Source of the DNA: a bacterium
GTDB lineage: Bacteria; Patescibacteriota; Minisyncoccia; Phycocordibacterales; CAIZLB01
NCBI GenBank assembly: GCA_031411135.1
Contig: JANOAN010000003.1
Coordinates: 10,614 to 74,613 of the forward strand
Length of the DNA stretch: 64,000 nucleotides
Direction of reading: 5' to 3'
Every line of letters begins with the position of its first letter. Within the stretch, counting starts at the first letter, position 1. The notes beneath the pieces were generated by a model. It was not told the DNA's origin. It saw only the letters and a list, made by a program, of their open reading frames with translations, and made no database searches. This document shows positions 1-58,131 of the stretch, in pieces. Both the position numbers and the translations under genes were made by a program.

Positions 1-1422
1 GATAGGAGAAATTTCCGGCAGAGATCGGACACCCTGGTCGCTTATTGTCAAAATAATTTTTGAATTTTTATTTTCAAGTTTGATTGCAACTGTAGAGTCT
101 TTGGAATACTGAATTGAATTTTCTAGAACATTTGCGATTGCGGTATGCAACTTGGTGCGGTCCCCTTTTATTTTATAGTCCTCATCCCCGATATCCATTT
201 CAATATTAATATTATGATGATCGATGATAAATTTTCTATCGCATAAAATATCATTCAAAGTTTGAGCTAAATCAACTTCATCTTTTGAATATTTCATTTC
301 TTCATTTTCTATTTGAGAGATGGCGAGAAAGTCTTTCACGATGACAATAAACCGATCGATAATTCCTTGCAGGCTTTTCAGGCCTATTTTGTCGAGATCT
401 ACGTCTTTGTCGTTCAACAATGAGGCGTAAGCGTTTATGGCGGTTAGAGGGCTTGCCATCTGGTGGCGGGCCAAGGAGACGAACTTTGATTTTATTTCGT
501 CGACTTCCTTCAATTGGTGGTTGGCGTGGGCGAGTTCGAGGACTAAACGGCGATTTTCTTCGTACTGTTCGGCTTGTTTTTTGACGGATTTGATGAGGAG
601 GATGCCGATGAGGATGGAGACCACGAGAAATATTACGGAGGTTGATGCGTTCCCTTTTTGTTCAAAAGCAGTGATTTTTACCAGGGTGAAAATCCATAGT
701 AGTAGGACGAAGATTTCTGTGGTGATTACTTTTATATTGAATAGATGGTGACGAGTAACAGCATAAGTAATAGCTAGTGCTACAAAAATAGTAGAAGTAG
801 GTCCAATCCATATATATTTAAAATTACCCATGGTGTGAAGTAGTAAATTTGTATTGAAAGAAATCACCCCAGAAAGAGTGTACCCAATAAAGATATATAG
901 GATCTGGAACTTCTTCGGGTCATTTTTTGAATAATTAAGGTACTTTTTAAATAATCTTAAAAAGCTGCTACAAAAATAGTAGAGTATATAGATTATAAAA
1001 ATACCGTAGTAGTGTCCAAAAACTACCTTGTTATCAAATGATTCTAAAGCAACCCCTCCTGTAACAATAGTATTTGTTTTTAAAATCAAGAAGATTAGGA
1101 AGATGTTTATAAGTACAACCTTTATTAATTTATTCTTATATTCTTGTTTAAAATCAGGAAAAATTAAACTAAAATAGTAAAAGCTACTTGCGATGGGTGT
1201 AGCTGAAACATACAAACTTCTAATCATAAAATTTATATTTTCGCTATTGGCTATTCTAAAAAATGCAACACTCCCCGCCCACCAAACAATCGTTGTAATA
1301 TTCAAAAGATAAAGAATATAAACCATACCCTTGTCGCCATTTCTATACCCAGAAGAAGACACCGTCACTAGCATTAGATTTATAAGAATAATAGCACTTA
1401 GTAATATGTTTATATTATCCAC
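1..1422 (-). CDS. sensor histidine kinase, partial (C-terminus runs off the left window edge)
   Basis: Absent from the ORF track because it is truncated. My reverse-strand translation is open from GTG at 1422 to base 1. It gives a polytopic N-terminus, then the H-box KSKFVSLARHQMASPLTAINAYASLL and the start of an ATPase domain (ILTISDQGV). It is a paralog of 2921..4504. The start could instead be ATG 1374. Confidence 0.7.
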   Translation of the reverse strand, partial: MDNINILLSAIILINLMLVTVSSSGYRNGDKGMVYILYLLNITTIVWWAGSVAFFRIANSENINFMIRSLYVSATPIASSFYYFSLIFPDFKQEYKNKLIKVVLINIFLIFLILKTNTIVTGGVALESFDNKVVFGHYYGIFIIYILYYFCSSFLRLFKKYLNYSKNDPKKFQILYIFIGYTLSGVISFNTNLLLHTMGNFKYIWIGPTSTIFVALAITYAVTRHHLFNIKVITTEIFVLLLWIFTLVKITAFEQKGNASTSVIFLVVSILIGILLIKSVKKQAEQYEENRRLVLELAHANHQLKEVDEIKSKFVSLARHQMASPLTAINAYASLLNDKDVDLDKIGLKSLQGIIDRFIVIVKDFLAISQIENEEMKYSKDEVDLAQTLNDILCDRKFIIDHHNINIEMDIGDEDYKIKGDRTKLHTAIANVLENSIQYSKDSTVAIKLENKNSKIILTISDQGVRSLPEISPI

Positions 1423-7496: not shown

Positions 7497-8264
7497 ATGC
7501 AAGAGCCCCGAAAACATCTTATGAGTCTTGGTTTAAGTGATTCTGAAGTCACCGTGTATTTAGCCATGGTGTCAGGGGCCAGAACTGCTAGAGATCTCGT
7601 AAAGGTTACTCGCCTAAAAAGACCAACAGTTTACTATGCACTGGGTTGTCTAGAAAAAAGAGGACTGACAAGCAAAACTGGCTTAGCGGGTGATAAAAGC
7701 TTTTCACTTGAACAAATTGAAAAACTATCTGTCATTGCTAAAGAAAAAGCATTGGAGTTTTCTAAACTTCAACAACGCATCGATGAGATGGTCCCTACCC
7801 TATCAGCTACATCATCTCCAGCTAATCAAAAACCAACAGTCGCTTTTTATGAGGGAGTAGACGCAGTGAAGAGCGCCGTCATGGATATGCTTTATTGTAA
7901 AAGTAAAAAAATTAGCTCTGTTGTGCCCAAGCAAAACTTTTTCTGGCAGGTAGGCCAAGATTTTGTTGAGCTTTATATTGAGGAGCGTGTTAAGCGAAGT
8001 ATTAAAACTAAGAATTTATGGGAAGCACCCATAAATAAGGGATTAATAAAACAATATTACGAGGGATTATCGCAAGTCAGAATATTACCTGAAGTAATGC
8101 ATGATAAATTTCAAACAACAACCTTTATGTATGACGACAAGACTCTCTATGTATCCTCAAAAAATAACAGCTACTGTGTACTTATAAAATCTAAGGAGCA
8201 CACGGATACGATGCGGGCATGGTTTGATGGGCTTTGGGGTGCATCGAAGCCGCATGATAGGTAG
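7497..8264 (+). CDS. TrmB-like HTH transcriptional regulator
   Basis: N-terminal winged-helix pattern (LGLSDSEVTVYLAMV...RPTVYYALGCLEKRGL). Paralogous in architecture to 30603..31331. Confidence 0.55.
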   Translation: MQEPRKHLMSLGLSDSEVTVYLAMVSGARTARDLVKVTRLKRPTVYYALGCLEKRGLTSKTGLAGDKSFSLEQIEKLSVIAKEKALEFSKLQQRIDEMVPTLSATSSPANQKPTVAFYEGVDAVKSAVMDMLYCKSKKISSVVPKQNFFWQVGQDFVELYIEERVKRSIKTKNLWEAPINKGLIKQYYEGLSQVRILPEVMHDKFQTTTFMYDDKTLYVSSKNNSYCVLIKSKEHTDTMRAWFDGLWGASKPHDR

Positions 8265-25269: not shown

Positions 25270-25974
25270 ATGAAAGCCCCCGCCAAACTTGTACTAATTC
25301 GTCACGCTGAATCAGAAAGAAATGCAGCACTCAATGGTGGTTTTTTTCTAAATGACCCAGATATTTTACAAAAAGTTGGAAAAGTACCTGATCATAGAAT
25401 ACCCATAACTGAGCACGGTAAATCTCAAGCTAAAAAAACTTCTTCTAAATTACTAGAAATTCATGGGATTCCAGACGTAGTTTTTCATTCTGGATATACA
25501 AGAACTAAACAAACAGCTGAAGGTGTTTTAAGCGATTATCCAGAAAATGCAAATCTTTCAATAAAAGAAGACCTTCTTATTCGCGAACGAGAAGGTGGTT
25601 ATCCATATACATTATTAGAATCTGAAAAAGATCTACACTTCCCTTATTTACAAGATTATTGGAACGTTGTCGGTGGAATATTTTCTCGCCCTGTTGGAGG
25701 AGAAAGCCTAATGGATGTTGTTGAGAATAGACTAAAGCCTTTCTTAGAAAATTTAAATAAAAACTATTCTGGAAAAACAATATTTCTAGTGACGCACGGA
25801 AGAGTGATTCAGTGTATGCGCTTTATTCTAGACGAAATGTCTTTGGAAGAAATGGAAAAGTTTATAGCTGATAATAAATCGTCACCTCGAAATTGTAGCG
25901 TAGCGGTTTATAAATACGATTCAAAAGAAGAAAAATTAAAATTAGACTCTTGGGATCAAGTTTACTGGGAATAA
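25270..25974 (+). CDS. histidine phosphatase family protein (phosphoglycerate mutase-like)
   Basis: RHAES catalytic motif (LVLIRHAESERN) and a later THGRV motif. Confidence 0.8.
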   Translation: MKAPAKLVLIRHAESERNAALNGGFFLNDPDILQKVGKVPDHRIPITEHGKSQAKKTSSKLLEIHGIPDVVFHSGYTRTKQTAEGVLSDYPENANLSIKEDLLIREREGGYPYTLLESEKDLHFPYLQDYWNVVGGIFSRPVGGESLMDVVENRLKPFLENLNKNYSGKTIFLVTHGRVIQCMRFILDEMSLEEMEKFIADNKSSPRNCSVAVYKYDSKEEKLKLDSWDQVYWE

Positions 25975-26582
25975 GTAAGAGATAAACCGCCGGTCCGAAA
26001 ATCGGGCCGGCGGTTTGACGCTTCAAGATGAGCTTTCAAATACCGCTTCAGTGCGGGACCAAACTCACTTCCGCACCTCTTCAGGTATCCAGAAATGACT
26101 TCGGAGCCAATTTTCTTGTTATTTCTTTGCGCAGCCCTCACCCAGGACTTCATCTCTGATCCAATCCGACGGATTACTACTTGTCCGTCATTGTTCAGAA
26201 AAACGCTGACGAATTCATCCGGATCCCATCCGCGGGCTTCTTTCCGGATAACACAGGCGATGAGCATCTCACGCTCGACACCACTTCCATCCTCTGGATA
26301 AATCAATCCCAAGGGGAGGAACAACCCTCCGAATTTTTCTGATTGATTCAAAATTCCTTCAATCAGATTCAGGCCGTTAAGCTGTGCCGTGTAGAGATTT
26401 TCCATCACTGCCCTTTTTTCTCCAATTCGCTTCTTTTTGGCCGTTTGGACTTGGATAGCCCAGATGGCCATTCCAATGAGTAGTGCGAGTGATGTCCAAA
26501 AGAGGACCAACATACGGTTGTACGCTACATTGCCACTTTGACGAGCAGGGGCGACTCCAGTAGTGAGTGCGGGTGTGTTCAT
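25962..26582 (-). CDS. hypothetical membrane-anchored protein (GC-rich orphan)
   Basis: A 206 aa ORF with a single N-terminal TM helix (MLVLFWTSLALLIGMAIWAI). No family recognised. Confidence 0.5.
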   Translation of the reverse strand: MNTPALTTGVAPARQSGNVAYNRMLVLFWTSLALLIGMAIWAIQVQTAKKKRIGEKRAVMENLYTAQLNGLNLIEGILNQSEKFGGLFLPLGLIYPEDGSGVEREMLIACVIRKEARGWDPDEFVSVFLNNDGQVVIRRIGSEMKSWVRAAQRNNKKIGSEVISGYLKRCGSEFGPALKRYLKAHLEASNRRPDFRTGGLSLTYSQ

Positions 26583-26695
26583 AGAGTACTGAACTCATTA
26601 GTATTAATAAGTGCAAAACGCTGTGAAAAACCAACTAGGAACTTTATCTGTATTAAGCCTATTCCTCCACATTAATAATGTCAATGTGTCAACTG

Positions 26696-26779
26696 TGCGC
26701 GGGAGAAGACTCGAACTTCCACGCCCGTAAGGGCGCTACCACCTCAAGGTAGTGCGTCTACCAATTTCGCCACCCGCGC
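26696..26779 (-). tRNA. tRNA-Leu (anticodon GAG)
   Basis: Hand fold on the minus strand. Acceptor GCGCGGG/CCCGCGC, anticodon stem-loop CUACC-UUGAGGU-GGUAG, a long variable arm, and T-arm GGAAG-UUCGAGU-CUUCU (4 bp plus one G.U). Confidence 0.85.
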
Positions 26780-26839
26780 ATGAGTCGTACTATACCAAAA
26801 TAAAAAAACCTTACAATTACTGTAAGGTTTTTTTATTTC

Positions 26840-27278: not shown

Positions 27279-27806
27279 TTACAAGAGGTCTCCCTCTATG
27301 TGGCTCAGTATAAAGTTAACCCTCTCCTCTGGTGGTAGAACCGGCACAGAGACTGGTTTATACCCAGAATGCTTATAGGCATCGATTATAGCTAGGTGGA
27401 TTTTTAGTCCCTCGTCCTTGTCTTCCCAACGAGACGTATCATTTTCATAAAATGGTAGTGGATCTAGTACGAAAACTTTCTCATACCTACCTCTTCCTAG
27501 CTTCTCTATTATTTCGGGTGGTTTAACTTTACCAAGAATTGAATACCCGTAACCGTCCACTATCCCTCTGTCATGAAAAGTCACCGCTTCGGTATCCATT
27601 TCTTCCAGTTTCAACTGCCTCTCTGCAACTAATTCTTGAAAACTTTGCAGATTAATCCAAGGCAAAGCATCGCTTCCCTTCATCTTCTCTTCTTCCATAA
27701 TCATGCGTGCTGCTTCAGGAACGACCTTATGCCCACGCGAAGCCAAGATTTCAATGACTGTTGTCTTCCCTATTCCTGGCCCACCGGTGATAACGTATTT
27801 CTTCAT
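27279..27806 (-). CDS. AAA-type ATPase (AAA_28 / NadR-kinase-like P-loop protein)
   Basis: N-terminal Walker [12 protein letters not shown] in a 175 aa protein. Confidence 0.65.
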
Positions 27807-27807
27807 T

Positions 27808-28506
27808 TTAGTTACTTATTAAAGTTCCTTTAAATTCATTATTATTTATTGCATCCCTTATCGCGGTTATATTTGAACCGTTAACAACTGCGACATCTAT
27901 TCCTAAACTTTGAGCCTCTTTTGAAGCAATTGGGTCAAATGGCGACGAAAGTCCTGGGTCCCATTTTTTAGGAATAATTTTTCTAAATTCTTTCCAGCTA
28001 ATTTTTTCTACTTGCCTGGCATCTGGATATTTTCTGGGGTCTTTATTATAGACATAATCGATATTTGATAAGTTAAGAAGCTTCTCCGCTTTAAATCTTT
28101 TGGCAAGGAGGACCGCGATGTAGTCAGTTGATCTTCCAGGTTTCCAACCGGCAGCTACCAATATTGGTTTGTTGAAAATTATTTTGTCATCTATTGGATG
28201 GTTTACGATGAATTCTTCGGTGTGAGGAAGCAGGACCGTCTTAAGAAGTTGTGCATTTAATCGTGTCGAGTGAATACCGAGCCAGTCAACTTCGTCTTTG
28301 CGTAATTTTGTCACAGCACCTCCTGCTTGTTGATAGTGCCTAGCCGTTCTTCCTCCTCCGCAGATTATGATAAATCTTTTTCCTTTTTTGATTTCTGCGT
28401 TGATTAGTTTTTTAAAGTTTTGTAAGAATCCTACATCAATTTTTTCTGGGACAATCAAAGAACCGCCGACCGATATGACTATTGGTTTAGATACTTCTTT
28501 TTTCAT
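27808..28506 (-). CDS. pyrH: amino-acid-kinase family protein, archaeal-type UMP kinase-like
   Basis: VISVGGSLIVP N-terminus, the CGGGRTARHY region and 232 aa length fit archaeal-type uridylate kinases. Confidence 0.7.
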   Translation of the reverse strand: MKKEVSKPIVISVGGSLIVPEKIDVGFLQNFKKLINAEIKKGKRFIIICGGGRTARHYQQAGGAVTKLRKDEVDWLGIHSTRLNAQLLKTVLLPHTEEFIVNHPIDDKIIFNKPILVAAGWKPGRSTDYIAVLLAKRFKAEKLLNLSNIDYVYNKDPRKYPDARQVEKISWKEFRKIIPKKWDPGLSSPFDPIASKEAQSLGIDVAVVNGSNITAIRDAINNNEFKGTLISN

Positions 28507-28532
28507 GTTTTTATTATAGCTTTATTAATTCT

Positions 28533-28569
28533 TTAAAGGAAAAGCGCCGTACCCGGAGGTAGGGCGCTG
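28533..28569 (-). terminator. intrinsic terminator closing the hammerhead operon
   Basis: Minus strand: AGCGCC-CUACCUCCGGGUAC-GGCGCU followed by UUUCCUUU. It starts 18 nt after the stop of 28587..29039. Confidence 0.65.
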
Positions 28570-28586
28570 ATGACCTTTTCAAACCC

Positions 28587-29039
28587 TTAATCTGCAGGTT
28601 CCAGAGCATCGTAGTTAACCCACTGTTCCTTACAGTATCCTCGTGTATCATCTTCCCCAAATGTTTCTTCTGGTTGTTCGAGTGGTTCTATATGCACCAA
28701 CCAATCGTGAGTATGGTGTGGTGCCTTGAAACCCAATCGCTCTCCAACGTTGCGATGATCTTCGCGTTTTTGTAATATTTCGAGAGTGAGTGTTTCTTCC
28801 CCATAATGTTCAGCGGGTGTGCGAACAGCAAGCACTCGACTACGAATTTGAGTCCCGCCGATTCGTGAACCATAAGTAGATAGGACATCTAGGTTGGCGA
28901 TCACGATGTCTCCGGGCTTCACATTACATGCGGGTGTCGGTTTTTTGCATTTATTTTGGACCATGCGATTGTTGATGTAGATACTTCCGCAGAATTCGCA
29001 TTTAAGAATCTCGAGGTTGATGGTGGTGGGTTTAATCAT
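28587..29039 (-). CDS. hypothetical protein with an N-terminal CxxC..C..C zinc-ribbon-like motif (hammerhead operon gene 3)
   Basis: A 150 aa GC-rich ORF with cysteines at CEFCGS...CKKPTPAC. The ATG lies 30 nt after the end of hammerhead 1. Confidence 0.55.
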   Translation of the reverse strand: MIKPTTINLEILKCEFCGSIYINNRMVQNKCKKPTPACNVKPGDIVIANLDVLSTYGSRIGGTQIRSRVLAVRTPAEHYGEETLTLEILQKREDHRNVGERLGFKAPHHTHDWLVHIEPLEQPEETFGEDDTRGYCKEQWVNYDALEPAD

Positions 29040-29068
29040 GTTGGTTGGGATGGATTATTTATTTGTAA

Positions 29069-29148
29069 CGTGCTTCTGTTTCGTCTTGCTCTACCACTCA
29101 GTAGAGAGACTCATCAGGCAGGCTTCACATCCTGCGACAGGTGAGAGT
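29069..29148 (-). ncRNA. type III hammerhead ribozyme, copy 1
   Basis: Minus-strand read: CACCUGUC^GCAGG-AUGUGAAG-CCUGC CUGAUGAG UCU-CUCUAC-UGAGUG-GUAGAG-CA-AGA CGAAAC AG. All core positions are present (C3 U4 G5 A6 N7 G8 A9, G12 A13 A14, A15.1:U16.1, C17, G10.1:C11.1). Predicted cleavage is after C at 29136. Confidence 0.85.
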
Positions 29149-29188
29149 TTTGAAAAGTTCTCTCAACTTTTTCTATTGCACTAAGGGG

Positions 29189-29725
29189 CTATGGGAGCTT
29201 CCTTAGTTCTGCAAGAAATGTGCTGATTTTTTGCAGTCGAGCTGTGACGAGAGTGGAGCGCCGGGTCGATTCCTCCAGCATTCGAAGCTCGTCCTTTTCC
29301 TCCCATTCAAGTTGTGAGAGTGCGGTAGAGAATAGCCCCTTGTTCTTGTGAGTGAGAGCCGACCAGTTATCCCAGTCTCCTCGGCTGTCTTGCTCAGCGA
29401 AAAGAAGTTTTCCGTCTTGCACCCGGAGCATATATCCTCCAGCTTGGCATGAGCAGAAGGAGATACGATCTCCATCTTCAAGTTCTTTGCGCAAGGTCTG
29501 GAGCTTGTAGCTCAGGCAACCTCCCTCGACTGCTTCGATTCCCGCTGAGAAGTAGCCGAGGTTCAGCCTCTCTGCATCTTCTCGAGTGATTGAGCGGTGA
29601 GATCCGAATTGGATCCCGCCAAACTCGCTTCCGTCGGTAGTGTCGGCAAGGATGCTTTGGTTGGTCTTGCCTACAAAGTAGTGCTTGGCTCCGGTGAACT
29701 TTTCAGTGAATTCGATAAATTTCAT
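29189..29725 (-). CDS. hypothetical protein (hammerhead operon gene 2)
   Basis: A 178 aa GC-rich ORF. The ATG lies 34 nt after the hammerhead 2 core. No family recognised. Confidence 0.55.
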   Translation of the reverse strand: MKFIEFTEKFTGAKHYFVGKTNQSILADTTDGSEFGGIQFGSHRSITREDAERLNLGYFSAGIEAVEGGCLSYKLQTLRKELEDGDRISFCSCQAGGYMLRVQDGKLLFAEQDSRGDWDNWSALTHKNKGLFSTALSQLEWEEKDELRMLEESTRRSTLVTARLQKISTFLAELRKLP

Positions 29726-29759
29726 AGTTGGTGTTTTGTTGGGGTTTGAGTTGTAAGGT

Positions 29760-29816
29760 TCTTCTGTTTCGCTCTGTTGAGCTCGTCAGGCAAGATTCAT
29801 CTTGCGACAGAGAGGA
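29760..29816 (-). ncRNA. type III hammerhead ribozyme, copy 2
   Basis: Minus-strand read: CUCUCUGUC^GCAAGA-UGAA-UCUUGC CUGACGAG CUC-AACA-GAG CGAAAC AGAAG. The core is intact. Stems I and II differ in sequence from copies 1 and 3 but stay paired. Predicted cleavage is after C at 29806. Confidence 0.85.
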
Positions 29817-29842
29817 TTTTAAGGTTCCTCGAACCTGCGTTC

Positions 29843-30073
29843 TCACCCCTCCACAAAGTGGAGTAGGTGAACCTCGTGCTCCTTGTTTTTCCTCTCGAGA
29901 TGCTTGACCAGTTCAAGCTGCTCGTGAGGAATCCTTGGAGTGAACCTGTGTGGTTCAGCTGAGGTGCCAGGTGCTGCGGGCTCTGACTTTGAACACTGTT
30001 CAAAGTTTCGAGTGCGCAGTTCCTGATTCCACTCGTGGCGAATCCGTTGGTGGCGGGCTTGTTTGTGGTTCAT
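29843..30073 (-). CDS. hypothetical small basic protein (hammerhead operon gene 1)
   Basis: A 76 aa ORF taken from MNHKQARHQ at 30073. The longer track ORF, which starts at 30118, would begin inside the ribozyme. The ATG lies 17 nt after hammerhead 3. Confidence 0.4.
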   Translation of the reverse strand: MNHKQARHQRIRHEWNQELRTRNFEQCSKSEPAAPGTSAEPHRFTPRIPHEQLELVKHLERKNKEHEVHLLHFVEG

Positions 30074-30090
30074 AGTGGTGGTTTGTAAGG

Positions 30091-30163
30091 TTCGCTGTTT
30101 CGTCCTGTCTGCACACATGTGCAGTAGACTCGTCAGGCAAGGTCACACCTTGCGACAGGCGGT
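30091..30163 (-). ncRNA. type III hammerhead ribozyme, copy 3
   Basis: Minus-strand read: CCGCCUGUC^GCAAGGU-GUG-ACCUUGC CUGACGAG UCU-A-CUGCAC-AUGU-GUGCAG-AC-AGGA CGAAAC AGCG. The core is intact. Predicted cleavage is after C at 30154. Confidence 0.85.
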
Positions 30164-30494
30164 TTTGAGGCGGTTTCAGAGCTACCTCGCCGTACCATGT
30201 GGGTTCTTCCCCATGGATTCAGCAGCTCCTACTCCCGCCCTTGACGCTGTGCCGCGCACAACGCTTGTCTGCTTTTTGCCAGACAAGTGGCTTTTTACCG
30301 ATTCGGCCTCCTCAGTGGTTTGTTTGCGTGATCTGGTACTTTGGAGGTCCAGTCAGGTTTGAGCCACTTAGACTCTTCGACTCGCACCCTCTGTGCCTAG
30401 TCGCCGTTCCTCGGTAGGGCTTCGCCAGCGAACCCTTGACCTTTTGTAAGGTGCCTTTTCTGCAGAAGACTATACTTGACACAACTAAATAATG
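30164..30494 (-). other. ORF-free GC-rich structured leader RNA region upstream of hammerhead 3
   Basis: No credible ORF on the minus strand (only a 10-codon ATG ORF). Several perfect local hairpins: CUUGUCUG-GCAAAAAG-CAGACAAG, UGUGC-GCG-GCACA, CCAUGGGG-AAGAA-CCC-A-CAUGG and GGG-UUCG-CUGG-CGAA-G-CCC. The 5' limit is only inferred from a weak promoter. Confidence 0.3.
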
Positions 30495-30500
30495 CTTGTA

Positions 30501-30530
30501 TTTATAGGTAGTTTTGTAATACATATTCAA
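30501..30530 (-). promoter_or_regulatory. candidate promoter of the hammerhead operon
   Basis: Minus strand: TTGAAT, an 18 nt spacer, then TATAAA. Weak evidence. A divergent plus-strand TTGACA-17-TATTTA at 30476..30504 could serve 30603..31331. Confidence 0.3.
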
Positions 30531-30602
30531 CAAAAGTACCCTACTTGCCTTATTTATAAAGGTTTGTTATAATTCTAAAACGTAATATAAAGTTACACTT
30601 TT

Positions 30603-31331
30603 ATGAAAACAAACTTAATACTCGAAAAAATAGGCCTAACAAAGCATGAAAGTGCTATATACCTAGCGCTTTTAGAGCTAGGTCCCTCAATCATTACGAA
30701 AATCTCAGAGAAGACTTCCATTCATCGACCGATCGTGTATAAAACCCTCCCTAACCTCTTAGAAAAGAAGTTGATTACACAGAACCCAGTCAAAAAACAT
30801 ATTGTCTACACAGCAGAACCACCAAACAGACTTGAAGCAATCTTTGAGGATTTAAAACACGAATTATTTAATCTTCTCCCAATACTTGAGGATTCGTATG
30901 TGATGAATACAAAAAAACTTAAAGTGAGATTTATTGAAGGTAAGGATGGGACAAAAAGAGTTTTCGACGATGTTGTCCGAAGTTTACCTAAAGGTTCAAC
31001 TTTCTACAGATATAGCTCCAACACTGACGGAGTTGAGAAAAAAGATAAATACTTACCACGTGCCTACCGAAACATTCGCGATGCAAAGAAATTGGAGCGA
31101 CAAGTCATCACCAACGAAGAAACTTCTAAGCAGAAAGAAGCAAAGTTAGATCGATTTATAAAAGTAATGCCGAACGACTTTGGATCATTCAACCACAATG
31201 TCACCCACCTGATTTACGGAGACAAAGTTGCTTTCATAGACTACAACTCAGAGACAGCGGTGGTTATTGAAAACAAAAAAATCGCAGATTTCCAGAGAAA
31301 TATTTTCCAAGTTCTATACAAAAAGCTTTAA
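30603..31331 (+). CDS. TrmB-like HTH transcriptional regulator
   Basis: LEKIGLTKHESAIYLALLELGPSIITKISEKTSIHRPIVYKTLPNLLEKKLI. Same architecture as 7497..8264. Confidence 0.55.
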   Translation: MKTNLILEKIGLTKHESAIYLALLELGPSIITKISEKTSIHRPIVYKTLPNLLEKKLITQNPVKKHIVYTAEPPNRLEAIFEDLKHELFNLLPILEDSYVMNTKKLKVRFIEGKDGTKRVFDDVVRSLPKGSTFYRYSSNTDGVEKKDKYLPRAYRNIRDAKKLERQVITNEETSKQKEAKLDRFIKVMPNDFGSFNHNVTHLIYGDKVAFIDYNSETAVVIENKKIADFQRNIFQVLYKKL

Positions 31332-57846: not shown

Positions 57847-57951
57847 ATCTAAGCTAAGGTACAGACAGATACCTCAGTTTTTGGTATCATGGTAATCACA
57901 ACAAAGACCTAACCCCTAGAAAACCCTTAGTTTCCTAGGATATGGTCGTAA

Positions 57952-58131
57952 TAAAAACCGCTACAGTATAGAAGACTCCTCGTCAGAGTCACTGTAGCGG
58001 TCGCGTCTAGGAAACTGGATGTGGGTTGAGCCGAAAGGTTCGATCACAATGGCGAGGGGTCTTCTGTCTCAAGGCTCAAAACTCCTCGCCACTTATTATT
58101 AGTTAATAAGCTTAAACCGCTACAGTGGCTT
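57952..58131. promoter_or_regulatory. structured intergenic element with three mutually exclusive 11-nt pairing segments
   Basis: ACCGCTACAGT at 57957..57967 and again at 58116..58126, with its exact complement ACTGTAGCGGT at 57991..58001. Also an internal GAGCC-GAAA-GGUUC hairpin (58028..58041), GGCGAGG/CCUCGCC (58051..57 / 58084..90) and TTGAGCC/GGCTCAA (58026..32 / 58073..79). The strand of action is unresolved. Confidence 0.4.

What the first reader, a model, noticed from the sequence alone, without database searches (positions are those of the whole stretch)
28533..30530. Operon punctuated by three type III hammerhead ribozymes, one in front of each orphan ORF
**What the sequence shows.** On the minus strand, three elements at 29069..29148, 29760..29816 and 30091..30163 each read: short stem III 5' strand, GUC, stem I hairpin, CUGA(U/C)GAG, stem II hairpin, CGAAAC AG.

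- Every invariant hammerhead position is present in all three: C3 U4 G5 A6 N7 G8 A9, G12 A13 A14, A15.1:U16.1, C17, and G10.1:C11.1.
- Stem I differs in sequence between copies but stays paired: GCAGG/CCUGC, GCAAGA/UCUUGC, GCAAGGU/ACCUUGC.
- Stem II also differs but stays paired: a 10-bp interrupted helix, a 4-bp CUC-AACA-GAG helix, and a GUCU..CUGCAC helix. This covariation is what a functional RNA predicts.

**Position relative to genes.** Each ribozyme ends 17-34 nt before the ATG of a GC-rich orphan ORF (76, 178 and 150 aa). One terminator at 28533..28569 closes the unit.

**Predicted consequence (inference).** Self-cleavage after 30154, 29806 and 29136 would cut a polycistronic transcript into monocistronic RNAs. 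Each would keep the ribozyme fold and a 5'-OH at its 5' end. Cleavage would also release two internal fragments of 348 and 670 nt with 5'-OH and 2',3'-cyclic phosphate ends, which are in principle ligatable into circles.

**Novelty.** Hammerheads are known in bacterial and phage operons. I cannot tell whether this three-gene cargo or this lineage has been described.
Basis: partly seen in the sequence, partly recalled or inferred. Interest (0 to 1): 0.9.

Follow-up and report, generated by a model that had tools for sequence, protein, structure and literature searches.

The report
Hammerhead ribozymes punctuating variable gene cassettes
Three sequence-intact self-cutting hammerhead RNAs are predicted to chop one transcript of a Patescibacteria (CPR) bacterium into single-gene pieces; that layout is already known from prophages, but here it marks the junctions of a regulator-linked, strain-variable array of orphan genes that recurs across this bacterial group.

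Summary
Three type III hammerheads lie on the minus strand at 30093-30161, 29761-29813 and 29073-29143. All have an intact core and paired stems. Predicted cleavage is after 30154, 29806 and 29136. Each sits 21-37 nt before an ATG, inside one GC-rich unit closed by one terminator.

Rfam finds all three, but below its gathering score. A family-specific model, covariation and a compensatory change in a sister strain support them.

The arrangement itself is not new. Perreault et al. 2011 described and cleaved triple hammerhead arrays flanking single prophage genes.

What is new is the context:
- The same hammerhead variant recurs in Patescibacteria genomes as a module: upstream hairpin, hammerhead, conserved leader motif, then a small ORF.
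- Arrays lie divergent from a TrmB-family regulator in 12 of 16 evaluable genome arrays and in 5 of 6 loci picked by TrmB homology alone.
- A sister strain (TrmB 97.5% identical) keeps the leader, HH1, ORF1, HH2 and the terminator but carries different cassettes. The upstream breakpoint is at the 3' end of HH2.
- Twister ribozymes occupy the same slot elsewhere.
- Cargo is almost entirely orphan.

Most likely function: insulation of each cassette at the RNA level, plus portable homology for cassette exchange. Cleavage itself was not tested.

The parts
30603..31331 (+). TrmB-family HTH regulator gene, transcribed divergently from the array; candidate regulator of the array promoter
   Evidence: Pfam PF01978, E 1.8e-13. 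Orthologues at 69-98% identity sit in the same divergent position next to hammerhead arrays.
30471..30602 (.). AT-rich divergent promoter and operator region. Holds the conserved box TGTCAAGTATAGT just upstream of the GC-rich unit, and palindromes
   Evidence: The TGTCAAGTATAnT box is conserved in L062, L068 and L051 by eye. Inverted repeat 30507-30517 / 30530-30540. The simple sigma-70 scan found no minus-strand promoter, so the transcription start is inferred.
30164..30465 (-). First unit: about 300 nt, GC-rich, no credible ORF. Candidate structured non-coding RNA whose 3' end would be made by HH1 cleavage
   Evidence: Folding energy z = -3.56 against shuffles. 13 differences in 303 nt against L062, with two 1-nt indels that break the only long ORF. 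9 of the 13 differing positions are unpaired in the window-only MFE. No Rfam hit at E<=10.
30093..30161 (-). Hammerhead HH1 (type III); predicted cleavage after C17 = 30154
   Evidence: Rfam 25.6 bits, E 0.016. Core intact. An A-U to G-C compensatory change in stem II against L062.
29843..30073 (-). ORF1, 76 aa, basic, orphan
   Evidence: The frame is kept in L062, with 8 non-synonymous and 5 synonymous codon changes and no indels. No Pfam, PHROG or PADLOC hit.
29812..29830 (-). P0 hairpin (GAGGA-ACCUUAAAA-UCCUC) abutting stem III of HH2; would become the 3' end of the ORF1 fragment
29761..29813 (-). Hammerhead HH2 (type III); predicted cleavage after 29806. Upstream breakpoint of the cassette replacement seen in strain L062
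   Evidence: Rfam 41.2 bits, E 6e-7. Homology to L062 ends at 29746, just 3' of HH2.
29751..29760 (-). Post-ribozyme leader motif AACCUUACAA. Copies also at 30083-30092, 29063-29072 and, after the presumed transcription start, 30444-30453
   Evidence: The family version GUUCUUUAAAA is enriched downstream of hammerheads: TTCTTT in 39 of 150 against 4.8 in background.
29189..29725 (-). ORF2, 178 aa; a real protein of unknown function
   Evidence: Homologues P0002 (60% identity) and P0124. AlphaFold2 pLDDT 91. No PDB fold match apart from the C-terminal coiled coil.
29142..29165 (-). P0 hairpin (UGAGAG-AACUUUUCAAAA-CUCUCA) abutting HH3
   Evidence: The same loop sits on a covarying stem in L062 (GGGG/CCCC) and in L068.
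29073..29143 (-). Hammerhead HH3 (type III, long stem II); predicted cleavage after 29136
   Evidence: Rfam 36.9 bits, E 1e-5. Near-identical long stem II in L051, L001 and L068.
28587..29039 (-). ORF3, 150 aa, a true orphan with a Cys-rich N-terminus
   Evidence: Only itself among 5.8 billion proteins. Weak DUF7479 match, E 0.018, below cut-off.
28533..28569 (-). Intrinsic terminator closing the unit. Shared with strain L062, where it is the downstream boundary of the replaced segment

Best explanation
**What it is.** The three elements are intact type III hammerhead self-cleaving ribozymes of a variant common in Patescibacteria (CPR) genomes and in some phage contigs. Each is the core of a junction module:
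- a hairpin (P0) that ends at the cleavage site;
- the hammerhead;
- a conserved A/U-rich leader motif;
- a start codon about 20-40 nt further on.

**The transcription unit.** The modules punctuate one unit that runs from a promoter shared divergently with a TrmB-family regulator gene (about 30465) to a single terminator (28533).

**Inferred mechanism.** Co-transcriptional self-cleavage after 30154, 29806 and 29136 would yield four RNAs:
1. a non-coding leader of about 310 nt;
2. a 348-nt ORF1 RNA;
3. a 670-nt ORF2 RNA;
4. an ORF3 RNA of about 600 nt.

Each downstream piece would start with a 5'-OH and a folded ribozyme. For HH2 and HH3, the upstream piece would end in a hairpin plus a 2',3'-cyclic phosphate. 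Stability and translation of every cassette would then be independent of its neighbours, as with the synthetic RiboJ insulator.

**At the DNA level.** The conserved 70-110-bp modules are the only homology between otherwise unrelated cassettes. They are where cassettes are exchanged between strains. The locus therefore behaves as a regulator-controlled, hypervariable array of small, mostly orphan genes.

**Shown versus inferred.**
- Shown: ribozyme identity at sequence, structure and covariation level; module anatomy; the TrmB linkage; cassette replacement with its upstream breakpoint at a module.
- Inferred: cleavage in vivo, the insulation and stability effects, recombination as the mechanism of exchange, and regulation by TrmB.
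For: **Ribozyme identity.**
- Full-length Rfam Hammerhead_3 matches; pattern enrichment of 3 against 0.05 expected.
- In 35 family members, 13 of 16 pairs show changes on both sides and 92.9% of cells are paired, against 37-46% when partners are slid.
- An independent A-U to G-C compensatory change in HH1 stem II between the window and L062. The remaining differences in HH1 and HH2 fall in loops.

**Module features.**
- A hairpin of 6 bp or more abuts stem III in 66% of 148 hammerheads, against 14% of control positions.
- The downstream motif is enriched 8-15 fold.
- The median distance from hammerhead to start codon is 28.5 nt.

**Arrays.**
- 21 genome loci, nearly all Patescibacteria.
- 87 metagenome loci with 171 model hits, up to 6 per array.

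**TrmB link.**
- 12 of 16 evaluable genome arrays, 13 of 44 metagenome arrays and 0 of 16 viral arrays.
- 5 of 6 loci chosen by TrmB homology alone carry hammerheads.

**Cassette turnover.**
- Window 29746-31346 matches L062 at 90% and 27307-28568 at 85%. The segment between differs, although it keeps homologous hammerhead modules.

**Selection for cleavage rather than for one fold.**
- Twister-P1 replaces a hammerhead ahead of a homologous cassette leader in L001, and sits inside a hammerhead array in L116.

**Published precedent.**
- Triple hammerhead arrays cleave as predicted in vitro and in E. coli (PMC3088659).
Against: - No cleavage, transcript or RNA-end data exist for this locus.
- All three score below Rfam's gathering threshold.
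- Stem III is only 4-5 bp and is not the thermodynamically favoured pairing for HH1 and HH3 in isolation. Efficiency could be low or could depend on tertiary contacts.
- HH1 lacks a clear P0 hairpin.
- The covariation set was selected by patterns and a pairing filter, which inflates the percentage paired.
- The loci were found with a pattern specific to this variant, so the census is biased.
- The promoter was not detected by the consensus scan.
- Cassette exchange by recombination within modules rests on one well-resolved strain pair.
- The conserved downstream motif has no demonstrated function.
Confidence: 0.68

Rival explanations
1. Remnant or domesticated piece of a phage. The array is a phage early or 'moron' operon with a divergent repressor, in the style of an immunity region. 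The hammerheads are the ordinary prophage-associated kind and have no host-specific role.
For: - The same hammerhead variant occurs in arrays on IMG/VR viral contigs.
- One of these, L022, carries Sak-like annealing protein and exonuclease VIII genes.
- The unit is GC-rich relative to the host.
- Cargo is orphan.
- A divergent HTH gene next to an operon resembles a phage immunity switch.
- Perreault 2011 places most bacterial hammerheads near prophage genes.
Against: - No integrase or phage gene lies within 5 kb on either side in the sister-strain table, and none among the window neighbours scanned. The neighbours are L19, a UMP-kinase-like gene, RluA and pilus genes.
- PHROG hits for the cargo are nil.
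- No similarity to 50,697 phage or 72,556 plasmid records.
- The TrmB gene and array occupy the same position in lineages whose TrmB is 69-98% identical.
- 0 of 16 viral arrays carry the TrmB gene.
Confidence: 0.15
2. Circular RNA factory. The 348-nt and 670-nt pieces released by two cleavages are ligated, by the reverse hammerhead reaction or by an RtcB-type ligase, into circular RNAs, as in eukaryotic retrozymes and viroid-like agents.
For: - Cleavage gives 5'-OH and 2',3'-cyclic phosphate ends, the substrates of RtcB. This is general knowledge and was not tested here.
- All three hammerheads share the same stem III core (CUGU / ACAG). The 3' end of any fragment can therefore re-pair with the ribozyme at its own 5' end.
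- Stem III is short, as in circular-RNA hammerheads.
- In L001 and L124, non-coding units of 300-400 nt are flanked by ribozymes on both sides.
Against: - No reverse transcriptase or replication function is nearby.
- The fragments carry ordinary ORFs with leaders.
- The P0 hairpin at the 3' end suggests end protection rather than ligation.
- Perreault et al. searched for circular or spliced products in comparable arrays and found none.
- No RNA data are available here.
Confidence: 0.07
3. Translation starters. The point of each ribozyme is not separation as such. It creates a 5'-OH end with a folded ribozyme directly upstream of a Shine-Dalgarno-less, C/A-rich leader, and this recruits ribosomes to each ORF.
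For: - None of the three window leaders has a Shine-Dalgarno sequence. They read ACCACCACUAUG, CACCAACUAUG and CCAACCAACAUG.
- Spacing to the start codon is tight, with a median of 28.5 nt.
- A conserved motif lies between ribozyme and start codon, and also just after the presumed transcription start.
- Ribozyme self-cleavage is reported to drive cap-independent translation in eukaryotic RNA viruses (bioRxiv 10.1101/2024.05.16.594327).
Against: - Host genes nearby also lack obvious Shine-Dalgarno sequences, for example the kinase-like gene at 28506. SD-less initiation may simply be the norm in this organism.
- Several family members do have a GGAGG between motif and start codon.
- 41 of 187 hammerheads have no ORF within 160 nt, and some precede non-coding units.
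- The precedent is eukaryotic.
Confidence: 0.1

Closest known systems
Clustered hammerhead ribozymes flanking single genes in prophages (Perreault et al. 2011, PLoS Comput Biol; triple arrays of Clostridium scindens, Azorhizobium caulinodans, Agrobacterium tumefaciens)
   Same: - Several hammerheads lie on one strand within about 2 kb.
- Each sits between small genes of inconsistent identity.
- The proposed role is processing a long transcript into single-gene RNAs.
- Cleavage of such arrays was shown in vitro and in E. coli.
   Different: - Those arrays lie in prophages near integrase genes.
- The array here lies among housekeeping genes of a Patescibacteria chromosome, with no phage genes.
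- It is linked to a divergent TrmB-family regulator.
- Its first unit is non-coding.
- It shows cassette turnover between strains, with the upstream breakpoint at a ribozyme module.
Co-location of different self-cleaving ribozyme classes in bacteria (twister with hammerhead; basis for finding twister-sister, pistol and hatchet; reviewed in PMC6765202)
   Same: In related loci a twister-P1 sits in the same slot as a hammerhead: L001 546-602 and L116 2193-2266. This fits the known shared gene associations.
   Different: - The window itself has only hammerheads.
- The interchange can be seen at the level of one homologous cassette leader, after HH2 in L062 and after the twister in L001.
- The review states that the reason for the association is not known.
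RiboJ-type synthetic ribozyme insulators
   Same: A hammerhead placed between promoter or upstream RNA and the ribosome-binding region cleaves off variable upstream sequence, so each gene gets a standard 5' end. This is a functional analogy to the module found here.
   Different: - RiboJ is engineered from a satellite RNA hammerhead, with a hairpin placed downstream.
- The natural module has its hairpin upstream of the cleavage site and a conserved single-stranded motif downstream.
- No functional test was done here.
Integron gene-cassette arrays
   Same: - One promoter drives an array of short, promoterless, mostly orphan cassettes.
- Cassettes are separated by conserved structured junction elements.
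- Content varies between close strains.
   Different: - No integrase was found, and no attC sites were identified.
- The junctions are RNA enzymes.
- Exchange is presumably by ordinary homologous recombination.
- This is an analogy only; the locus is not a member.
Retrozymes and viroid-like circular RNAs with type III hammerheads
   Same: Type III hammerheads with a short stem III flank units of a few hundred nucleotides.
   Different: Those are eukaryotic or RNA replicons that circularise and need reverse transcription or RNA replication. No such machinery or evidence is present here.

Membership tests
Hammerhead ribozyme, type III (Rfam RF00008) | Conserved catalytic core: C3 U4 G5 A6 N7 G8 A9, G12 A13 A14, A15.1-U16.1, H17 | tested here: met
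   All positions are present in all three elements, with GUC at the cleavage site.
Hammerhead ribozyme, type III (Rfam RF00008) | Three-way junction with stems I and II closed by loops and stem III open | tested here: met
   Full-length alignment to the model consensus structure. Stems I and II form in the MFE folds. Stem III is only 4-5 bp and is fully predicted only for HH2.
Hammerhead ribozyme, type III (Rfam RF00008) | Stems maintained by covariation among relatives | tested here: met
   13 of 16 pairs change on both sides in 35 relatives. This set was preselected for pairing. An independent A-U to G-C change is seen in HH1 stem II against L062.
Hammerhead ribozyme, type III (Rfam RF00008) | Score at or above Rfam's curated gathering threshold (48.5 bits) | tested here: not met
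   The three score 41.2, 36.9 and 25.6 bits. This is an annotation cut-off, not a biological criterion. Only 2 of the 34 Hammerhead_3 hits in related loci pass it.
Hammerhead ribozyme, type III (Rfam RF00008) | Mg2+-dependent site-specific self-cleavage | not testable with these tools
   This needs in vitro transcription or RNA-end mapping.
Prophage-associated clustered hammerheads (Perreault 2011) | Several hammerheads on one strand flanking individual genes | tested here: met
Prophage-associated clustered hammerheads (Perreault 2011) | Prophage context (integrase or phage genes nearby) | tested here: not met
   Neighbours are L19, an AA-kinase family gene, AAA_28, RluA and pilus genes. No PHROG hits for the cargo. 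No match to phage or plasmid records.
Integron | Integrase gene (intI) next to the array, and attC recombination sites between cassettes | tested here: not met
   The Pfam table for 5 kb on either side in the sister strain shows no integrase. The junctions are hammerheads. attC sites were not searched for specifically.
Retrozyme or viroid-like circular RNA | Circular RNA product and a replication or reverse-transcription route | not testable with these tools
   No RNA data are available, and no reverse transcriptase is seen nearby.
Twister ribozyme | Match to a twister covariance model | tested here: not met
   No twister hit in window 28300-30800 at E<=10. Twister-P1 is present in related loci L001 (48.3 bits) and L116 (40.3 bits), both below the gathering score of 67.2.

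The most novel reading that the evidence does not exclude
The locus is one instance of an undescribed, Patescibacteria-wide genomic device: a TrmB-controlled, recombinase-free cassette array.
- Self-cleaving ribozyme modules (hammerhead or twister, with a 3'-end hairpin and a standard leader) act as the RNA-level insulators that make any incoming cassette expressible.
- The same modules provide the portable DNA homology through which cassettes are swapped between strains.
- Cassettes include orphan proteins and ribozyme-flanked non-coding RNAs of 300-400 nt.

If true, this would give bacterial hammerheads a concrete biological role.
Probability: 0.35. Interest if true: 0.8.

Novelty: new variant of a known kind. 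Interest (0 to 1): 0.6.

Why it matters
**The open question.** What bacterial hammerhead and twister ribozymes are for has been unresolved since 2010-2014. The 2019 review still calls their roles 'largely elusive'.

**What this locus adds.** It places the known 'ribozyme between genes' layout in a defined, recurrent, chromosomal setting:
- one promoter and one terminator;
- a linked regulator;
- sister strains that differ only in the cassettes between ribozyme modules.

**Why that helps.**
- The insulation and cassette-exchange hypothesis becomes testable, both by comparative genomics of existing CPR genomes and by metatranscriptome end-mapping.
- Standard Rfam thresholds miss almost all of these ribozymes, so they are probably unannotated in CPR genomes.
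- About 96% of the cargo has no Pfam match. The arrays are a concentrated source of unknown small proteins, and possibly of new non-coding RNAs, in organisms that live attached to other cells.

Tried and rejected
**Searches that added nothing about the cargo or the island.**
- A default Rfam scan of the window gives only tRNAs and LOOT, no ribozyme. The hammerheads appear only with E-value thresholds.
- Pfam, PHROGs and PADLOC give nothing above cut-off for the three ORFs. A wider cargo set of 55 proteins gives 2 Pfam hits and 0 PADLOC hits.
- ORF3 has no homologue at all.
- Fold searches with the confident ORF2 model match only its coiled-coil tail.
- Phage and plasmid collections have no DNA similarity to the island.
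- Cargo proteins are not shared between the window and the other arrays by tblastn.
- I found no paper that links hammerheads with the candidate phyla radiation or Patescibacteria.

**The leader as a member of a wider non-coding RNA family: not established.**
- nhmmer with the window leader finds only the sister strain.
- A profile built from the L068 and L124 leaders finds L070 but not the window.
- MAFFT alignment of five leaders is poor.
- Only short shared motifs remain: CCGAGGAA, and YACGGCG followed by a hairpin.
- An alifold result in which all 18 differences were unpaired weakened to 9 of 13 when the window-only MFE was used.

**Ideas considered and dropped.**
- A fourth, degenerate hammerhead or another ribozyme in the leader: none found.
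- The 73-aa ORF at 30312-30533 as a gene: rejected. It starts in the AT-rich promoter region, and indels against L062 break its frame.
- A recurring 'ORF' (…ARNFGTFIAATLTCSPVFGLR…) near several arrays gave no Rfam hit. By eye it looked to me like the antisense reading of an HU-type DNA-binding protein gene; I did not check this. HU genes (Bac_DNA_binding) are annotated near TrmB in other loci.

Full report
**1. The observation**

On the minus strand, the three elements read as canonical type III hammerheads.
- The 5' strand of stem III ends in GUC.
- A stem I hairpin, the box CUGA(C/U)GAG, a stem II hairpin and CGAAAC-AG follow in that order.
- C17 lies at 30154, 29806 and 29136. The two internal fragments would be 348 and 670 nt.

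Tests against chance and against the curated family:
- The generic box pattern occurs three times in the 64 kb window, all here and on one strand. Shuffled sequence gives 0.05 on average.
- Rfam Hammerhead_3 matches all three end to end. Scores are 41.2, 36.9 and 25.6 bits, with E-values of 6e-7, 1e-5 and 0.016 for the 2.5 kb searched.
- All three are below the curated 48.5-bit cut-off. A default scan of the window reports none.

Local context:
- ORFs of 76, 178 and 150 aa begin 21-37 nt after each ribozyme.
- A stem-loop followed by a U-tract at 28533-28569 closes the unit.
- The unit is 50-56% GC in a 33-43% GC neighbourhood.
- Stems I and II form in thermodynamic folds. Stem III has only 4-5 pairs and is fully predicted only for HH2.

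**2. Relatives**

ORF2 has one homologue in the word-indexed protein collection (60% identity). Its contig, L001, carries two hammerheads of the same variant and a twister-P1 match of 48.3 bits, E 8e-9.

Exact-pattern scans for this hammerhead variant returned:
- 27 viral contigs;
- 21 genome loci, almost all Patescibacteria (Nomurabacteria, Saccharibacteria, Parcubacteria, Paceibacterota);
- 87 metagenome loci.

I built a covariance model from 35 of these sequences.
- It finds no copy in the window beyond the three, which were part of its training set.
- It finds 171 copies in the metagenome loci, with up to six per array.

Covariation in the 35-sequence alignment:
- 13 of 16 pairs show changes on both sides.
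- 92.9% of cells are paired, against 37-46% when the partners are slid.
- These sequences were preselected by pattern and by a pairing filter. The paired percentage is therefore inflated, although inner stem I and stem II were not fixed by the search patterns.

An independent check comes from a sister strain. HH1 stem II differs by a compensatory A-U to G-C change, and the other differences in HH1 and HH2 fall in loops.

Only 2 of the 34 Hammerhead_3 hits in related loci reach Rfam's gathering score. None did in the default scan of 19 genome loci.

**3. The module**

The ribozyme is the centre of a larger repeated unit.
- A hairpin of at least 6 bp ends within 4 nt of stem III in 66% of 148 distinct hammerheads, against 14% of control positions.
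- In the window this hairpin is present before HH2 (29812-29830) and HH3 (29142-29165), but not clearly before HH1.
- The HH3 hairpin loop AACUUUUCAAAA recurs on covarying stems in L062 and L068.
- Downstream, a motif is enriched 8-15 fold. The family consensus is GUUCUUUAAAA; the window version is AACCUUACAA or CACGUUACAA.
- In the window, the same motif also follows the presumed transcription start (30444-30453).
- The start codon of a small ORF follows at a median of 28.5 nt. Median cargo length is 130 aa.

**4. The locus**

The gene divergent from the array (30603-31331) is a TrmB-family HTH protein.

Linkage between a divergent TrmB-family gene and the first hammerhead (380-980 nt apart):

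| Set | Arrays with divergent TrmB |
|---|---|
| Evaluable arrays in Patescibacteria genome loci | 12 of 16 |
| Evaluable metagenome arrays | 13 of 44 |
| Evaluable viral arrays | 0 of 16 |
| Loci fetched by TrmB homology alone | 5 of 6 |

The first three sets were found through the hammerhead, so they could be biased. The fourth set is the unbiased control.

Further points:
- A third ORF2 homologue (P0124) also lies in a seven-ORF array divergent from a TrmB gene.
- The intergenic region holds a box TGTCAAGTATAnT, conserved by eye just before the unit, and palindromes.
- I infer, but have not shown, that these are the array promoter and TrmB operators. The consensus promoter scan did not call a minus-strand promoter.

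**5. Cassette turnover**

The sister strain L062 has a TrmB protein 97.5% identical to the window's and lies on a 790-kb contig.
- It matches the window from TrmB through the leader, HH1, ORF1 and HH2 at 90%, and again from the terminator onwards at 85%.
- The 1.18 kb between (ORF2, HH3, ORF3) is replaced by 1.68 kb. That segment carries three other ORFs (54, 167 and 220 aa) and two hammerhead modules homologous to the window's.
- Homology ends within the leader motif just 3' of HH2.
- The modules are conserved while the cargo on both sides of them differs. This is what recombination within modules would produce. It rests on one well-resolved strain pair.
- The leader of the cassette after HH2 in L062 is homologous to the one that follows the twister in L001. 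Two unrelated ribozyme folds therefore serve the same slot.

**6. Cargo**

- Across non-viral loci, 129 distinct ORFs directly downstream of hammerheads fall into 99 clusters.
- Of 55 scanned, 2 have a Pfam match and none a PADLOC match.
- ORF3 is unique in 5.8 billion proteins.
- ORF1 keeps its frame in L062, with 8 non-synonymous and 5 synonymous codon changes.
- ORF2 is a real protein. Its first 80 residues define a family with about 100 hits among 50%-identity representatives, mostly 80-aa proteins.
- Its AlphaFold2 model is confident, with pLDDT 91. Apart from the C-terminal coiled coil it matches nothing in the PDB.

**7. The first unit**

Between the promoter and HH1 lie about 300 nt of GC-rich sequence without a credible ORF.
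- It folds better than shuffles, z = -3.56.
- It differs from L062 at 13 of 303 positions. It is more conserved than ORF1 (16 of 231) or the TrmB region (about 90%).
- Two 1-nt indels break the only long ORF.
- Differences are enriched in unpaired positions: 9 of 13 against about 41% expected.

In L001 and L124, comparable non-coding units are flanked by ribozymes on both sides.
- L068, L124, L070 and L001 share sequence blocks: CGCAGGAC..GUUUGGCG, and CACGGC followed by a hairpin.
- I could not show that the window's leader belongs to that family. It remains a candidate structured RNA.

**8. How it most likely works**

Shown here:
- intact ribozyme sequence and structure;
- the module anatomy;
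- the operon layout;
- the TrmB linkage;
- cassette replacement with its upstream breakpoint at a module.

From the literature:
- Comparable triple arrays cleave completely during transcription and in E. coli (PMC3088659).

Inference:
- Cleavage gives each cassette RNA a uniform 5' end: 5'-OH, the folded ribozyme, then the standard leader.
- Where a P0 hairpin is present (before HH2 and HH3), the upstream RNA ends in a hairpin with a cyclic phosphate.
- Expression of any cassette is then independent of what lies upstream.
- The conserved modules also give unrelated cassettes the homology needed for exchange.
- TrmB would switch the whole array on or off.

**9. Rivals**

- A prophage remnant is the main alternative. 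The same variant occurs in true phage contigs: L022 carries Sak and exonuclease VIII genes.
  - Against it: the locus has no phage genes and no match to phage or plasmid records.
  - It also occupies a conserved position beside the TrmB orthologue, and no viral array carries TrmB.
  - A phage origin in the distant past is not excluded.
- Circular RNA production is compatible with the shared stem III sequence. It has no support here and was not detected in earlier work on similar arrays.
- A direct role in translation initiation is compatible with the SD-less leaders and could coexist with the main model.

**10. Verdict**

- The arrangement as such is a known kind. It is a new variant because of four things: the lineage, the sub-threshold hammerhead variant with its hairpin and leader module, the conserved divergent TrmB gene, and the strain-level cassette turnover at ribozyme modules.
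- Interest is moderate to high rather than exceptional. It rests on the locus making an old question testable.

Noticed in passing
window 30164-30465 (-): About 300 nt of GC-rich non-coding sequence lies between the promoter and HH1. It folds well (z = -3.56) and is more conserved against the sister strain than the adjacent ORF. It is a candidate structured RNA whose 3' end would be made by the ribozyme, and it has no Rfam match.
   Followed up: partly
L068 622-945 (-), L124 34-450 (+), L070 about 814-846 (-), L001 134-545 (+): These non-coding units of 300-400 nt share sequence blocks (AGCCGAGGAA, CGCAGGACU..GUUUGGCG, CUGCACGGC followed by a hairpin). They are flanked by ribozymes or by a promoter plus a ribozyme. 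This may be an undescribed RNA family carried as a 'cassette'. Rfam finds nothing there.
   Followed up: partly
L001 546-602 (+); L116 2193-2266 (+): Twister-P1 matches (48.3 and 40.3 bits, below the gathering score of 67.2) sit inside hammerhead arrays. In L001 the twister is followed by the same leader motif and by a cassette leader homologous to the one after HH2 in L062.
   Followed up: partly
L001 79-133 (+): A hammerhead copy has AUC at the cleavage site and CCGACGAG in place of CUGACGAG (U4 to C). Stem III covaries (CCAU/AUGG). It may be inactive or a tolerated core variant.
   Followed up: no
window 57906-58045 (+): A LOOT RNA (RF03000) match scores 52.7 bits, above the gathering score of 46.4. 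It is the only non-tRNA family found by the default scan.
   Followed up: no
window 25962-26779 (-): This is a second variable spot. A tRNA (26696-26779) is followed by a 206-aa orphan ORF of 47-49% GC, downstream of the L19 gene. Homology to the sister strain stops at 26800, and that strain has a LAGLIDADG-like ORF there instead.
   Followed up: partly
window 7497-8264 (+): A second TrmB-family gene lies in the window (HMM E 3.9e-62). No hammerhead is detected next to it.
   Followed up: no
window 30083-30092, 29751-29760, 29063-29072, 30444-30453 (-); related loci: A conserved motif (AACCUUACAA here, GUUCUUUAAAA in the family) follows each ribozyme and the presumed transcription start. A similar sequence forms the loop of several upstream hairpins (AACUUUUCAAAA). 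Its function is unexplained.
   Followed up: partly
window 29189-29725 (-), residues 1-80: The N-terminal domain of ORF2 defines a family with about 100 hits among 50%-identity representatives, mostly 80-aa proteins (consensus M.F.EF....K.YFVG....ILADT..G.EFGG). It has no Pfam family and no PDB fold match, although the predicted structure is confident.
   Followed up: partly
L096 (380-aa cargo after a hammerhead); L158 2533-3678: An AAA_28 ATPase is the gene divergent from the TrmB orthologue in the one TrmB locus without a hammerhead (L158). An AAA_28 protein is also the only cargo protein in the scanned set with a strong Pfam hit. A separate AAA_28 gene lies at 27279-27806 in the window.
   Followed up: no
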